A stretch of 64,000 bases of DNA. Source: the human T2T-CHM13v2.0 reference genome, Homo sapiens. Below the pieces are notes generated by a model that was given only the letters and a program-made list of their open reading frames with translations, had not been told where the DNA came from and made no database searches. Both the position numbers and the translations under genes were made by a program. The stretch lies in NCBI RefSeq assembly GCF_009914755.1, contig NC_060927.1. One strand, given 5' to 3'. Within the stretch, counting starts at the first letter, position 1, and the number at the start of each line of letters is the position of its first letter. Positions 40,261-61,609 of the stretch are shown one piece after another.

Positions 40261-40272
40261 CTGAGAGTCAAG
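40261..40272 (-). CDS. ERC2: ERC2 12-nt microexon, phase 2/2; changes ELE-R-HMK to ELE-SLTL-R-HMK
   Basis: Minus strand reads ccaatcag|CTTGACTCTCAG|gtcagt, preceded by ACTAAT and an AG-free pyrimidine zone of about 130 nt. Joined to the flanking exons it gives ESLTLRHMKDQ, the sequence I recall from the ERC2 reference protein. Confidence 0.93.
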
Positions 40273-40366
40273 CTGATTGGAGCAAGGGTGAAAGCAGCAA
40301 TTTGGAGGATAAGCAGAAAGGAAAAGGGATAGCAAAAGAGAATAAAAGGAAGGAAATGCATTAGTT
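40273..40366 (-). promoter_or_regulatory. Splicing control region of the 12-nt microexon: distal branch point (ACTAAT), long polypyrimidine tract and UGC cluster
   Basis: ACTAAT lies at 40360-40365. There are six TGC triplets in about 90 nt and no AG between 40275 and about 40408 on the minus strand. Confidence 0.7.
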
Positions 40367-46340: not shown

Positions 46341-46534
46341 CTCTCCAGTTCTGCGATCTTCTTGTCCTTGTCATTCTTCTCATTCTCCACCTCCTTGAGG
46401 ATCTCCAGCAACCGGTCCACTTCCGCTTGGGCCTTGCCACACTCGTCGCGGTAGTAAGACGCCTCTTTATCGAGCTGTTTTATTTGGTCTGCAAACTCAG
46501 GGTTCATCCTGGAGTCATCTTCAATATTATGTGC
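46341..46534 (-). CDS. ERC2: ERC2 coding exon, 194 nt, phase 0/2 (AHNIEDDSRMNPEF...KDKKIAELE)
   Basis: Minus strand reads ttgaag|GCACAT...GAACTGGAGAG|gtaaat. It has 64 codons plus 2 nt, is CpG-rich like an exon, and the peptide is recognised as ERC2. Confidence 0.97.
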
Positions 46535-47425: not shown

Positions 47426-47455
47426 CCCTTGTTTCCCATTATTCCTAATTGACTT
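47426..47455 (-). CDS. ERC2: Candidate alternative ERC2 microexon, 30 nt (27 nt with the second tandem acceptor), phase 0/0 (KSIRNNGKQG)
   Basis: Minus strand reads ttgttttttccctgcctgctctttgaag|AAG|TCAATTAGGAATAATGGGAAACAAGGG|gtaggc. It is open and frame-preserving, with an AG-free zone of about 88 nt upstream and TGCATG about 200 nt downstream. Confidence 0.65.
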
Positions 47456-55196: not shown

Positions 55197-57386
55197 TGAT
55201 GGGGGAAGAAATTACCAACATTAGAGGAATAAGCAAATAGAGTAGAATAGTATACAATCATTAAAATAGTATTTTGGAGGAATAGTTCATTATATGAGAA
55301 AATTCTAATAATGTAAAAAAAATAGAATAGAAACCCAAATAAACACTTTGAAGTAGAGTGTTAGATAAGAAAAAGAAAAAGTAACACAAGAGTGAGAGAA
55401 GGAAAGGAGGAATAAAGGGAAGGAGAAGGCAAGAGGAGAGAGGAAAGAAAGAAGAAAAGAAAAAGAGAGAAGAAGAACAGCAACAACAAAAAGATGTCTA
55501 GGTGGAGAACAATCCAAATGTTCCAGCAATTATTTCTGTGCCGTGAGATGTCCTGTTATTTTTTAATTTTCCTCTATAGGCTTCCATATGGTTGCAAATT
55601 CTCTACTGTGACCATATATTATTTTTACAACTAAGAAAAACATAGTCATTTTTAAAAGACAATTAAGGGTAGAAAATCCATCATGCTGCATCCCTATCAG
55701 TCCAAAAAACAATTGGACACCAAGACAGGGGGAGTTAAAATAATGAGAGTTTGGCTATATTCCCGGGATGCCAAACCAATGGGTTAGTTTAATTAACTTG
55801 AGGAGAAAAGTCAGTCAATGACTTTTGAATTAGTCACTGAAAAGACTGAAAAGTTCACGCTGGCATATTAGAGACGCACCACTGGGGTGAAGTGAAGTAA
55901 AAGTTGATGATGCCATGTCACTGATATTTCTAGAAATGGTCTAAAAGCTAACTGAGAGTTATTTCTTTGGTCCTACCTATCCTGACAGGGAGAGTGAACT
56001 CCTAGCATGGTCCTGGTATATTTTTGCTGCTGCAGGAACAAGGCTCTCCCCATCTGTCATGCACACACCCAAAACATGACATTCTTTGGTTTTCTTCCTG
56101 TTCCTAACTAGTAAGTATGAAACAATTGCAGTGGGATTATTTCGCTTATTTTTTAAACAACTTTTTTTAAACACTCATTTTTTCCCAGGGTGTTTTCGAG
56201 CTTGAAGATATTCCAGTCTTATTTGTCTTTCTTCACATCTCCACTGTCCTGAGCCTGCTTATTAGCACTTCTATTCAAATGTTAAGGGAAAAGAAACTTA
56301 AGCTGATTATTTTTTGCTTCTCTGCTAAAATCTGCATTTTGAAAAAGAGGTTAACAAAGATGCTCCAGCAGGGTTTTAGGAATTCTGTTTGCAAAAATAA
56401 AATGTGTTGTAAAGAATGGAGGGTGGAGGCTGAATCTAACTAAGTACACCTGAACATCTTGCAGATCAAGCTGTATGTATCCTGAAGCAGTGGCTTAACA
56501 AATAAAAAGTTGTGGGTGCAATTGTTTCCTTTATCCATGCTATTCATTTTCTCCATAAGGGGATTTATACATAGGAGGTGATTAGAATGCATGATAGCAC
56601 AGATCACATCTGCCAAATGATAAACTCTAGCCATCTTTATGAAGTATTTTCCCAGTAAGCCACTTAAGTTCACTGAACAAAAAAGCTTTTCTTCTTTAAT
56701 AAGTTTAAAAAACAAACTGCTTCATATATTAATAAATGCACACAAGTCACTAGGATAAAAAAAATTCGTGGTGGCACCTGGCTCATTTTACAAATATTTT
56801 TACTAGTTACCTTTTTGTACTCTATTAAGCTATAATCAGAATTGTTACTATCTGTTATTAGGAGACTATATTATGGTTTGTCCTCAGCCAAATGGCATGC
56901 CTTTAACTGTTACAAAATCCACAGTAATGTCAAGTATTTACCAATCTCAAAGAGCGTAACCCTGTTTTTAAATCTAAACCTGTTTTAACTTCTGTCACTT
57001 GAATAAAACAGATATTGAATTGTTTGCTATTTTACAAATGTTGTTATCCCTTTCGGCCTAGATATGCTTGTGTTTGAAGGATTTAAGGAAGAGTTCCATA
57101 AGCCTAGATCTTCAGCTGACTTTTGTTTTTCTATAGTCTTTGGGCTGAGGTTAAGAAGGAGGTAATATCAGAGTTGGCAATATTTTCTTGAGTTATTAAT
57201 TTTTAAATTTCACATTCAAAAGAAATGGCAGTGGCCTCAGCACAGATCATTTCTTTTGACAGAACGGAAAGGGGAAGAAACTCATAAATATTTTCAAAAC
57301 CTCCCCAGTATGGCACACCGTGACTGGTGATCAATGGATCCTCATGCTTTGATATGTTACAGCGGGAACTTTCAGAAATGACTTAC

Positions 57387-57422
57387 TGGGTTGTACATCT
57401 GATTGAACAACTGCTCAGCTTG
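57387..57422 (-). CDS. ERC2: Candidate alternative ERC2 cassette exon, 36 nt, phase 0/0 (QAEQLFNQMYNP)
   Basis: Minus strand reads gctaat, then an AG-free pyrimidine tract of about 70 nt with UGC triplets, then caatgtag|CAAGCTGAGCAGTTGTTCAATCAGATGTACAACCCA|gtaagt. It is open and in phase with the flanking exons. No transcript evidence is available to me. Confidence 0.75.
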
Positions 57423-57496
57423 CTACATTGCAAAGTTGGGGAGGCATTGAGGCACAGACAGGGAAAGAAGGAAAGATCCAGAAAAACAGCATTAGC
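57423..57496 (-). promoter_or_regulatory. Splicing control region of the 36-nt exon: branch point GCTAAT, polypyrimidine tract and UGC motifs
   Basis: CTAAT lies at 57491-57495, with TGC at 57430, 57444, 57452 and 57489. The stretch is AG-free up to the acceptor. Confidence 0.6.
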
Positions 57497-61468: not shown

Positions 61469-61609
61469 CTTTTTTAACTGTGCTTCCAATTTGCTACATT
61501 CCTCTTTCTTTTGTTCAATGGCTATTTCTAGAGATTTTAATTTGGAATCCCTTTTCAGCCCCGCAGAGGCTAATGAAGATGCATGTTCTTTGAGGTCAAT
61601 TAAACTAGA
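61469..61609 (-). CDS. ERC2: ERC2 coding exon, 141 nt, phase 0/0 (SSLIDLKEHASSLASAGLKRDSKLKSLEIAIEQKKEECSKLEAQLKK)
   Basis: Minus strand reads ttctttctctttcag|TCTAGT...AAAAAG|gtaagt. It has 47 open codons and the peptide is recognised as ERC2/CAST coiled-coil sequence. Confidence 0.97.

What the first reader, a model, noticed from the sequence alone, without database searches (positions are those of the whole stretch)
57387..57422. Hidden 36-nt in-frame exon QAEQLFNQMYNP
Seen: GCTAAT branch point at about -69, an AG-free pyrimidine tract, TGC at 57430, 57444 and 57452, a TAG acceptor, 12 open codons and a consensus gtaagt donor. AGCATG lies about 40 nt downstream (CATGC at 57343-57347 on the + strand). 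The phase 0/0 fits exactly between ...EAQLKK and AHNIED.... No ORF in the supplied track covers this frame. Inference: it inserts a helix-like stretch ending in Asn-Pro, with a new Tyr, at a probable coiled-coil break.
Basis: partly seen in the sequence, partly recalled or inferred. Interest (0 to 1): 0.78.

Follow-up and report, generated by a model that had tools for sequence, protein, structure and literature searches.

The report
Known 36-base neuronal ERC2 exon
This is a real small alternative exon of the synaptic scaffold gene ERC2, conserved from fish to humans, but it is already annotated and was shown in mouse in 2012 to depend on the neural splicing factor SRRM4, so the find is correct but not new.

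Summary
The feature is a genuine in-frame (phase 0/0) 36-nt cassette exon of ERC2 that adds QAEQLFNQMYNP between ...EAQLKK and AHNIED....

It is not hidden. The hub's RefSeq table lists 57387-57422 as an exon of other ERC2 transcripts. Of the 120 mammalian ERC2 protein models listed, 54 carry the insert. The peptide is identical in spotted gar and near-identical in teleosts.

The mouse orthologue ("Erc2 ex. 12") is printed with its flanks in Nakano et al. 2012. Its inclusion falls from 45.8% to 0% in the vestibular macula of Srrm4-mutant mice. Weyn-Vanhentenryck et al. 2018 list it as a known, selected, coding cassette. They give PSI of about 0.5 falling to about 0.3 in mouse cortex and predict it to be a direct Rbfox target.

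The insert lies 5 residues before the published CCC/CCD coiled-coil boundary of ELKS2. Its protein-level function is unknown.

A second, amniote-conserved 30-nt exon (47455..47426, KSIRNNGKQG) is intact in the window but absent from the hub's human table.

Verdict: already known, low interest.

The parts
57387..57422 (-). 36-nt alternative cassette exon of ERC2, phase 0/0, encoding QAEQLFNQMYNP (residues 688-699 of human model P0015)
   Evidence: The hub's RefSeq table lists it as an exon of other transcripts. 54 of 120 mammalian models carry it. The mouse orthologue is printed in Nakano 2012 Table S2.
57423..57425 (-). 3' splice site TAG (AG at 57424-57423). It is also an in-frame stop when read as a codon.
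57381..57386 (-). 5' splice site GTAAGT, a perfect match at +1..+6. The exon's last bases are CCA.
57426..57495 (-). AG-free, pyrimidine-rich tract (76% Y at -70..-21). It holds three TGC motifs at 57454-57452, 57446-57444 and 57432-57430. This is the position and type of the UGC/GC element that Nakano 2012 found necessary for Srrm4-dependent inclusion.
   Evidence: By-eye comparison with the mouse flank shows all three TGC conserved.
57491..57496 (-). GCTAAT, the candidate distal branch point (CTAAT fits YTNAY; branch A at about -70)
   Evidence: It is conserved in the mouse flank. Branch-point use is inferred, not shown.
57343..57347 (-). GCATG at intron +40..+44, the Rbfox core motif. Here it reads AGCAUG, not UGCAUG.
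   Evidence: It is conserved in the mouse flank. The mouse exon is scored Rbfox = 1 in Dataset S9 of Weyn-Vanhentenryck 2018.
61469..61609 (-). Upstream constitutive ERC2 exon ending ...EAQLKK
   Evidence: hub table.
46341..46534 (-). Downstream constitutive ERC2 exon (194 nt) starting AHNIEDDSR...
   Evidence: hub table. The published CCC/CCD boundary NIE|DDS lies in its first codons.
47426..47455 (-). Second tandem 30-nt phase-0/0 cassette exon encoding KSIRNNGKQG. Its acceptor is tttgaAG|, its donor is |GTAGGC, two TGC lie within 35 nt upstream, and the AG-free zone is 88 nt. It is not in the hub's human RefSeq table.
   Evidence: All 120 models listed carry it after the 36-nt exon, from primates to birds and lizards.

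Best explanation
The feature is a genuine, already annotated, neuron and sensory-cell regulated cassette exon of ERC2 (ELKS2/CAST).

Shown:
- It is spliced in frame between the exons ending at 61469 and starting at 46534, or via the 30-nt exon at 47455..47426.
- It adds 12 residues 5 residues upstream of the published boundary between coiled-coil regions CCC and CCD.
- In mouse the orthologous exon is about 30-55% included in cortex.
- In mouse vestibular macula its inclusion needs Srrm4.

Inferred for human:
- SRRM4, and probably its paralogue, acts through the conserved UGC motifs at the end of a long AG-free pyrimidine tract that is served by a distal branch point.
- Rbfox proteins add enhancement through the conserved GCAUG at +40.
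- In non-neural cells the weak proximal acceptor context leaves the exon skipped.

Hypothesis only: at the protein level the insert lengthens or alters the poorly conserved hinge between the CCC region (Bassoon/Piccolo and liprin-alpha binding) and the CCD region (CaV-beta, Rab6, RIM-proximal). This would tune scaffold geometry rather than add a new domain.
For: Anatomy and chance filters.

Annotation:
- The hub's RefSeq table lists the exon.
- Human XP models X1, X2, X4, X5, X11, X12 and X20 and others carry the insert.
- P0015 equals canonical P0010 plus 12 aa.

Transcripts: proteins from assembled contigs of only 5-6.6 kb carry the insert. P0016 differs from P0015 at 1 of 969 residues, and P0008 is identical over its 920 residues. 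The four coding exons in this window alone span 57 kb, so these contigs must be spliced RNA (inference).

Conservation:
- The peptide is invariant in 120 of 120 amniote models.
- It is identical in spotted gar.
- 117 of 120 models carry a QAE.L-type 12-aa insert. That list is biased because the query itself carried the insert.
- Human versus mouse DNA, compared by eye: the exon matches at 34 of 36 positions, and both differences are synonymous. The upstream 100 nt match at 93 of 100, ungapped. The downstream 100 nt match at 82 of 100, with 50 of the first 51 identical. GCTAAT, all three TGC, the AG-free zone and GCATG are all kept.

Regulation:
- Nakano 2012, Table S6: Erc2 ex. 12 inclusion is 45.8% in bv/+ and 0% in bv/bv vestibular macula.
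- Weyn-Vanhentenryck 2018, Datasets S5 and S9: coding, known AS = 1, under selection = 1, module M1-. PSI runs 0.47-0.54 from E14.5 to P7, then 0.29-0.34 from P15. Rbfox = 1; Mbnl, Nova and Ptbp = 0.
- I identified that event by geometry. It is a 36-nt cassette with introns of 4260 and 10873 nt, against 4046 and 10852 nt here. It is followed by a 194-nt exon and a 12-nt cassette, as in this window.

Protein context:
- ELKS2 CCC ends ...NIE656 and CCD starts 657DDS....
- Conservation dips at residues 690-729.
- The Pfam Cast domain spans 150-923.
Against: - Srrm4 dependence is shown only for the mouse orthologue, and only in vestibular macula. Cerebellum and neocortex were 'not tested' for this exon. 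Many other exons in the same table were unchanged in bv/bv brain.
- The Erc2 exon is not said to be among the 6 mutated minigenes.
- Erc2 was not found in the 5 of 6 supplementary files I could search of the nSR100 knockout paper PMC4387716.
- The Rbfox call is a Bayesian prediction, not an experiment on this exon.
- The motif is AGCAUG rather than UGCAUG.
- I did not read the sign convention of the table.
- Inclusion falls, rather than rises, between P7 and P15, which simple Rbfox activation does not explain.
- No human expression data were examined here.
- The protein-level role rests on position alone. No solved structure covers the site: PDB chains cover residues 258-317, 464-606 and 853-927 only. 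The ELKS review states that the relevance of the internal alternative exons is not known.
Confidence: 0.9

Rival explanations
1. A chance pseudo-exon: an open 12-codon stretch between an AG and a GT that the spliceosome does not use.
For: The intron holds 482 open AG..GT phase-0/0 candidates, so open mini-frames are common. The frame is open for only 16 codons.
Against: - The exon is annotated in RefSeq (hub table).
- It is present in 54 of 120 mammalian models and in assembled transcripts.
- The peptide is identical from gar to human.
- Human and mouse differ only at synonymous positions, and 93 of the 100 upstream intron bases are identical.
- Measured PSI in mouse cortex is 0.29-0.57.
Confidence: 0.01
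2. The exon is real, but in brain it is driven mainly by Rbfox and other factors. SRRM4 would be limiting only in hair cells and other sensory cells, so the UGC motifs matter little in cortex.
For: - In Nakano's Table S6, most exons lost in bv/bv vestibular macula were unchanged in bv/bv cerebellum or neocortex.
- The exon is scored as a direct Rbfox target.
- No Erc2 entry was found in the searchable supplements of the nSR100 knockout brain paper.
Against: - Brain was simply not tested for this exon.
- One supplementary file of PMC4387716 could not be searched.
- All three TGC are conserved in mouse, within an upstream flank that is 93% identical.
- Inclusion falls after P7, when simple Rbfox activation would predict a rise. 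The expectation that Rbfox rises then is my own knowledge, not checked here.
Confidence: 0.3
3. A regulatory 'poison' or non-productive exon that lowers ERC2 output rather than making a protein isoform.
For: None found. I considered it because many small conserved neural exons act this way.
Against: - 36 nt keeps the reading frame, and the exon contains no stop codon.
- Dataset S5 labels the event 'coding', not NMD.
- The amino-acid sequence, not just the nucleotides, is conserved, with only synonymous human-mouse changes.
Confidence: 0.01
4. The conserved stretch is a structured non-coding RNA or intronic regulatory element, not an exon.
For: The flanking intron sequence is highly conserved.
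Against: - No Rfam family reaches its gathering score in the window. Only sub-threshold hits lie nearby.
- The 181-nt region folds no better than shuffled sequence (z = +0.50).
- The coding evidence given above.
Confidence: 0.01

Closest known systems
Mouse Erc2 (CAST1) 'exon 12', an Srrm4-dependent exon (Nakano et al. 2012, PLoS Genet, PMC3464207; Tables S2 and S6 read)
   Same: It is the orthologue. It is 36 nt, encodes the identical peptide and has the same TAG acceptor and GTAAGT donor. GCTAAT, the three TGC, the AG-free tract and the GCATG at +40 are all kept. By eye, the upstream flank matches at 93 of 100 positions and the downstream flank at 82 of 100.
   Different: Two synonymous codon differences. 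Srrm4 dependence was measured in mouse vestibular macula only. Nothing was measured for the human exon here.
Mouse Erc2 cassette CA-238988-405732-409992-410028-420901 (Weyn-Vanhentenryck et al. 2018, Nat Commun, PMC5989265; Datasets S5 and S9 read)
   Same: The exon size and the geometry of neighbouring introns and exons are the same. It is labelled coding, known AS and under selection.
   Different: That dataset adds what the window cannot show: PSI of 0.29-0.57 across cortical development, late-switch module M1-, and a predicted direct Rbfox target call. I matched the event by geometry, not by sequence.
SRRM4/nSR100-dependent neural microexons, for example the 12-nt ERC2 exon at 40272..40261 in this same window
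   Same: Both are short, frame-preserving and neural. Both have UGC motifs just upstream of the acceptor and highly conserved flanks.
   Different: At 36 nt the exon is longer than the strict 3-27-nt microexon class (a definition I recall, not read here). It relies on a distal branch point about 70 nt upstream with a 71-nt AG-free zone.
Rbfox-enhanced cassette exons with a downstream (U)GCAUG
   Same: GCAUG lies at +40 downstream, the position associated with activation. The position rule is established knowledge that I recall. The motif is conserved in mouse.
   Different: The motif is AGCAUG, not the full UGCAUG. The only evidence for this exon is a network prediction.

Membership tests
Coding exon of ERC2 (ELKS/CAST family, Pfam PF10174 Cast) | Keeps the reading frame between the flanking coding exons and contains no stop codon | tested here: met
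   P0015 equals P0010 plus 12 aa at 688-699.
Coding exon of ERC2 (ELKS/CAST family, Pfam PF10174 Cast) | Present in transcripts or protein models of the gene | tested here: met
   Hub RefSeq table. 54 of 120 listed mammalian models carry it. It is also in transcript-assembly proteins P0008, P0009 and P0016. The Cast domain hit spans 150-923 with the insert inside it.
Coding exon of ERC2 (ELKS/CAST family, Pfam PF10174 Cast) | Conserved as protein sequence in orthologues | tested here: met
   The peptide is invariant in 120 of 120 amniote models and identical in gar. Teleost variants such as QAEQLFSQMNNP occur. The only human-mouse differences are synonymous (by eye).
SRRM4 (nSR100)-dependent neural cassette exon | [quoted passage not shown] | tested here: met
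   Three TGC lie within 35 nt of the AG, a density seen at 1.6% of AG sites in the window.
SRRM4 (nSR100)-dependent neural cassette exon | Inclusion is lost when Srrm4 is inactivated | tested here: met
   Met by reading published data for the mouse orthologue only: 45.8% to 0% in bv/bv vestibular macula. It cannot be tested for the human exon with these tools.
SRRM4 (nSR100)-dependent neural cassette exon | The motif is shown to be necessary for this particular exon (mutagenesis or binding) | not testable with these tools
   Six other minigenes were mutated. Erc2 is not named among them in the passages read.
Strict microexon (3-27 nt; definition recalled, not read here) | Length of 27 nt or less | tested here: not met
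   The exon is 36 nt. It works like a microexon but falls outside the strict size class.
Rbfox-activated cassette exon | (U)GCAUG in the proximal downstream intron, conserved | tested here: inconclusive
   GCAUG at +40 is conserved in mouse. However, it is preceded by A rather than U, and a GCATG lies within 66 nt of 5.8% of GT sites in the window.
Rbfox-activated cassette exon | Rbfox binding or Rbfox-dependent inclusion | not testable with these tools
   The only evidence is the published Bayesian prediction, Rbfox = 1 at FDR<=0.01. I did not read the sign convention.

The most novel reading that the evidence does not exclude
The 36-nt exon is the first half of a tandem, co-regulated two-exon module (36 + 30 nt, 22 aa: QAEQLFNQMYNP + KSIRNNGKQG). 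The module is conserved across amniotes and sits exactly at the CCC/CCD hinge of ERC2.

The 30-nt half (47455..47426) is intact in the human sequence but missing from the hub's human RefSeq table. In the 126 double-insert models seen here, it never appears without the 36-nt exon.

If human sensory cells or neuron subtypes use the full 22-aa hinge, human ERC2 has an under-annotated isoform series. That series could set scaffold spacing at ribbon-type or specialised active zones under SRRM4 control.
Probability: 0.3. Interest if true: 0.35.

Novelty: already known. Interest (0 to 1): 0.12.

Why it matters
The result matters mainly as a calibration. A reader working from raw sequence alone correctly picked out a real, deeply conserved, regulated 36-nt exon and its cis-elements in a 15-kb intron.

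Biologically the exon is already catalogued. It is in RefSeq alternative transcripts, in the 2012 list of mouse Srrm4 targets, and in the 2018 mouse atlas of developmental splicing.

What remains open is the question the ELKS review raises: whether the internal alternative exons of ELKS proteins change function. This exon, together with its 30-nt neighbour, sits at the CCC/CCD boundary. It is lost in a deafness mutant's sensory epithelium. That makes it a reasonable but modest candidate for an isoform-specific study.

Tried and rejected
- **Structure prediction.** I submitted jobs for ERC2 with the insert (alignment A1) and without it (A2). They were never returned: polling either gave 'not finished yet' or failed, and the jobs were reported lost. 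The helix question is therefore untested.
- **Heptad heuristic.** A crude heuristic of my own suggests the upstream heptad register runs to about residue 681-690 and changes across the junction. It is too weak to count as evidence.
- **Peptide strings in print.** QAEQLFNQMYNP, KSIRNNGKQG and sub-strings gave 0 papers.
- **circRNA paper.** The 'ERC2 microexon' in PMC8355340 is the 12-nt exon, not this one.
- **Autism preprint.** 10.1101/077057 PCR-validated an ERC2 splicing event, but the passages read do not say which exon. Its supplements are closed.
- **Interneuron preprint.** 10.1101/305904 names Erc2 only among genes with splicing changes between P4 and P8.
- **Circadian paper.** PMC7397853 names Erc2 without naming an exon.
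- **Papers not held.** Wang 2002 (PMC137906), the PMC id I tried for the published autism paper (PMC7102905) and Kaeser 2009 (PMC2785857).
- **nSR100 knockout paper.** The searchable supplements of PMC4387716 contain no Erc2 entry. Five of six files could be searched.
- **ERC1 equivalent.**
  - Of the 32 representatives whose match spans the junction, only carp ERC2 (P0123) carries the insert.
  - The ERC1-type representatives do not carry it. I assigned the ERC1 type from their sequence and the ELKS1 boundary.
  - None of the 4 mouse Erc1 cassettes in Dataset S9 is 36 nt.
  - This is weak evidence that the exon is ERC2-specific. No ERC1 genomic DNA could be examined.
- **Other checks.** RNA-family and RNA-structure readings were rejected. 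The 2 kb around the exon holds no meaningful repeats.

Full report
**Observation**

All coordinates below are on the minus strand. Window 57422..57387 reads as 12 sense codons, QAEQLFNQMYNP. The stretch is preceded by tgTAG and followed by GTAAGT.

The codon just upstream is the TAG of the acceptor, and a TGA follows four codons after the donor. The frame is therefore open for only 16 codons and escapes any ORF list.

- GCTAAT lies at 57496-57491, with the branch A at about -70.
- The 71 nt from there to the acceptor AG contain no AG.
- TGC occurs three times in the last 35 nt, and GCATG begins at intron +40.
- The annotated neighbours end ...EAQLKK and begin AHNIED... in phase 0.

**Is it more than chance?**

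The 14,934-nt intron contains 482 open AG..GT phase-0/0 candidates of 9-90 nt. Only 6 have a GTRAGT donor, and these use just 2 donor sites. Only this one has a long AG-free zone.

Three or more TGC in the 35 nt before an AG occur at 1.6% of the 4226 AG sites on the gene strand. Among pyrimidine-rich, AG-free sites the figure is 2 of 72. A GCATG lies within 66 nt of a GT at 5.8% of 3515 sites.

Each motif alone is weak evidence. The combination stands out, but the decisive evidence comes from elsewhere.

**It is an annotated exon**

The hub's RefSeq table already lists 57387-57422 as an exon of other ERC2 transcripts.

I searched the protein database with the downstream exon (P0002). This query is neutral with respect to the insert. 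It gave 4347 hits, of which 120 were listed, all mammalian ERC2. Of those 120:
- 48 carry QAEQLFNQMYNP at the junction.
- 6 carry it followed by KSIRNNGKQG.
- 65 carry nothing there.
- 1 lacks the junction altogether.

Several human XP isoforms are among the carriers. Human model P0015 is exactly the canonical 957-aa protein plus these 12 residues at 688-699.

Proteins predicted from assembled contigs of only 5-6.6 kb also carry the insert. P0016 differs from P0015 at 1 of 969 residues, and P0008 is identical over its 920 residues. The four coding exons in this window alone span 57 kb, so such contigs must be spliced RNA (inference).

**Conservation**

A representative search with human isoform P0013 found a carp ERC2 (P0123) with QAEQLFSQMNNP at the same junction.

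A search with that carp region listed 120 proteins. Of these, 117 have a QAE.L-type 12-residue insert. Eleven of them are identical to the human peptide: ten mammals, including echidna, and the spotted gar, a holostean fish. Three teleost models have other sequences there. This list is biased because the query contained the insert.

A third search, with a macaque region containing both inserts, listed 120 models from primates, ungulates, rodents, echidna, birds and lizards. In all 120 the first 12 residues are invariant.

The constant core is QAE-L-(F)...NP.

**The exon is in print for mouse**

*Nakano et al. 2012* (PLoS Genet, PMC3464207). I read Tables S2 and S6 and main-text passages. Table S2 prints the Srrm4-regulated Erc2 exon with 100-nt flanks. 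I compared it by eye with the human sequence:
- The exon matches at 34 of 36 positions. Both differences are synonymous (Glu GAG/GAA and Asn AAC/AAT).
- The upstream flank is 93 of 100 identical without gaps. GCTAAT, all three TGC and the AG-free zone are kept.
- The downstream flank is 82 of 100 identical, with 50 of the first 51 identical. GCATG at +40 is kept.

Table S6 gives inclusion of 'Erc2 (CAST1) (ex. 12)' as 45.8% in bv/+ and 0% in bv/bv vestibular macula. Cerebellum and neocortex were not tested for this exon.

[quoted passage not shown] This was done in six mutated minigenes and an RNA pull-down. Erc2 is not named among those minigenes in the passages I read.

*Weyn-Vanhentenryck et al. 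2018* (Nat Commun, PMC5989265). I read Datasets S5 and S9 and main-text passages. They list a 36-nt Erc2 cassette flanked by introns of 4260 and 10873 nt, against 4046 and 10852 nt here. It is followed by a 194-nt exon and a 12-nt cassette, the same geometry as this window.

The dataset entries for this cassette are:
- Labels: coding, known AS = 1, under selection = 1, module M1-, core member.
- Cortex PSI: 0.47, 0.44, 0.50, 0.54 and 0.45 from E14.5 to P7.
- Cortex PSI: 0.32, 0.31, 0.29 and 0.34 from P15 to 21 months.
- Regulators: Rbfox = 1 at FDR<=0.01; Mbnl, Nova and Ptbp = 0.

Module M1 is the late switch between P4 and P15. I did not read the table's sign convention. A fall in inclusion after P7 is not what simple Rbfox activation would predict, and that remains unexplained.

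**Mechanism**

*Shown:*
- The exon is used and is frame-preserving.
- It is under purifying selection at the protein level.
- It is substantially included in mouse brain.
- It depends on Srrm4 in mouse vestibular epithelium.

*Inferred for human:*
- The acceptor has a purine-interrupted proximal context (caatgtag) and a pyrimidine tract displaced upstream (76% Y at -70..-21).
- The only good branch-point match lies about 70 nt away, at the start of the AG-free zone. This architecture is typical of regulated exons with distal branch points (established knowledge, recalled).
- SRRM4-type factors acting on the conserved UGC motifs, helped by Rbfox at the downstream GCAUG, would make this weak site usable in neurons and sensory cells.

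Alternative non-coding readings are disfavoured. No Rfam family reaches threshold. The region folds no better than shuffled sequence. No significant repeat overlaps it, and the 36-mer is unique in the window.

**Protein context**

The whole region lies inside the Pfam Cast domain, residues 150-923.

Held et al. 2016 (eLife, PMC4935463; figure legend read) define ELKS2 CCC as ending ...NIE656 and CCD as starting 657DDS.... The insertion point (KK|AHNIE) is therefore 5 residues before the CCC/CCD boundary.

In a 29-sequence alignment, identity to human drops to 0.26-0.38 over residues 690-729. On either side it is 0.50-0.71.

No solved structure covers the site.

According to the ELKS review (PMC5830537; passages read), CCB and CCC bind Bassoon and Piccolo, CCA-CCC bind liprin-alpha, and CCD binds CaV-beta and Rab6. 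The review also says the functional relevance of the internal alternative exons is not known.

My hypothesis, that the insert modifies a hinge between these two interaction blocks, rests on position only. The structure predictions meant to test the 'helix then Asn-Pro break' idea could not be obtained.

**Comparison and novelty**

The exon works like an SRRM4-dependent neural microexon. At 36 nt it is outside the strict 3-27-nt class (definition recalled, not read here).

It is the human orthologue of a published mouse exon and is present in current annotation. The novelty class is therefore 'already known'.

The peptide strings themselves appear in none of the papers searched. No paper seen here addresses the protein-level role of the exon.

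**By-product**

It is 30 nt, phase 0/0, and encodes KSIRNNGKQG. Its acceptor is tttgaAG, its donor is the weak GTAGGC, two TGC lie just upstream, and the AG-free zone is 88 nt.

It is intact in the human window and is carried, always after the 36-nt exon, by:
- 6 of the 120 models.
- All 120 models. These split into KSIRNNGKQG in 61 mammalian models including bonobo and orangutan, MPIRNNGKQG in 55 bird and lizard models, KPIRNNGKQG in 2 echidna models, and KPIRNEGKQG in 2 Mastomys models.

It is not in the hub's human RefSeq table. It is not among the five mouse Erc2 cassettes in Dataset S9. This is the only part of the locus that may still be under-annotated in human.

Noticed in passing
window 47426-47455 (minus strand): A second tandem 30-nt phase-0/0 exon encodes KSIRNNGKQG. 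It is intact in human and carried after the 36-nt exon in 126 models, from primates (including bonobo and orangutan) to birds and lizards. It is absent from the hub's human RefSeq table and from the mouse cassette list in Dataset S9 of PMC5989265. In the neutral list it is never seen without the 36-nt exon (0 of 119 models).
   Followed up: partly
window 40261-40272 (minus strand): The annotated 12-nt ERC2 microexon (contributes SLTL) has three TGC in the AG-free pyrimidine tract just upstream, the same SRRM4-type signature. It is the 'ERC2 microexon' of the circRNA paper PMC8355340 (hg19 chr3:56020004-56020016). ERC1 has a 12-nt counterpart listed in the same table.
   Followed up: partly
window 40273-40331 (minus strand): A macaque model (P0434) extends the 12-nt exon upstream to 72 nt, and its peptide matches the human sequence 100%. 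In human, however, there is no AG in the stretch read upstream of 40331, up to 40370. The extension looks like a model artefact or a macaque-specific site.
   Followed up: partly
proteins P0364, P0370, P0381 (teleost ERC2 models): At the same junction these three models carry unrelated inserts beginning with Val (VSPAH..., VGLDF..., VGVLDT). A GTN first codon suggests read-through of the donor site in gene prediction rather than another exon. This is inference only.
   Followed up: no
mouse orthologue; Datasets S5 and S9 of PMC5989265: The exon is scored as a direct Rbfox target (value 1), yet its inclusion falls from about 0.5 to about 0.3 between P7 and P15. I did not read the sign convention, and the two observations are not reconciled.
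   Followed up: no
window 57178-57296 (plus strand): A sub-threshold Rfam match to MIR1435 scores 31.1 bits against a gathering score of 94 (E = 0.024 for a 1.2-kb search). I treated it as noise.
   Followed up: no
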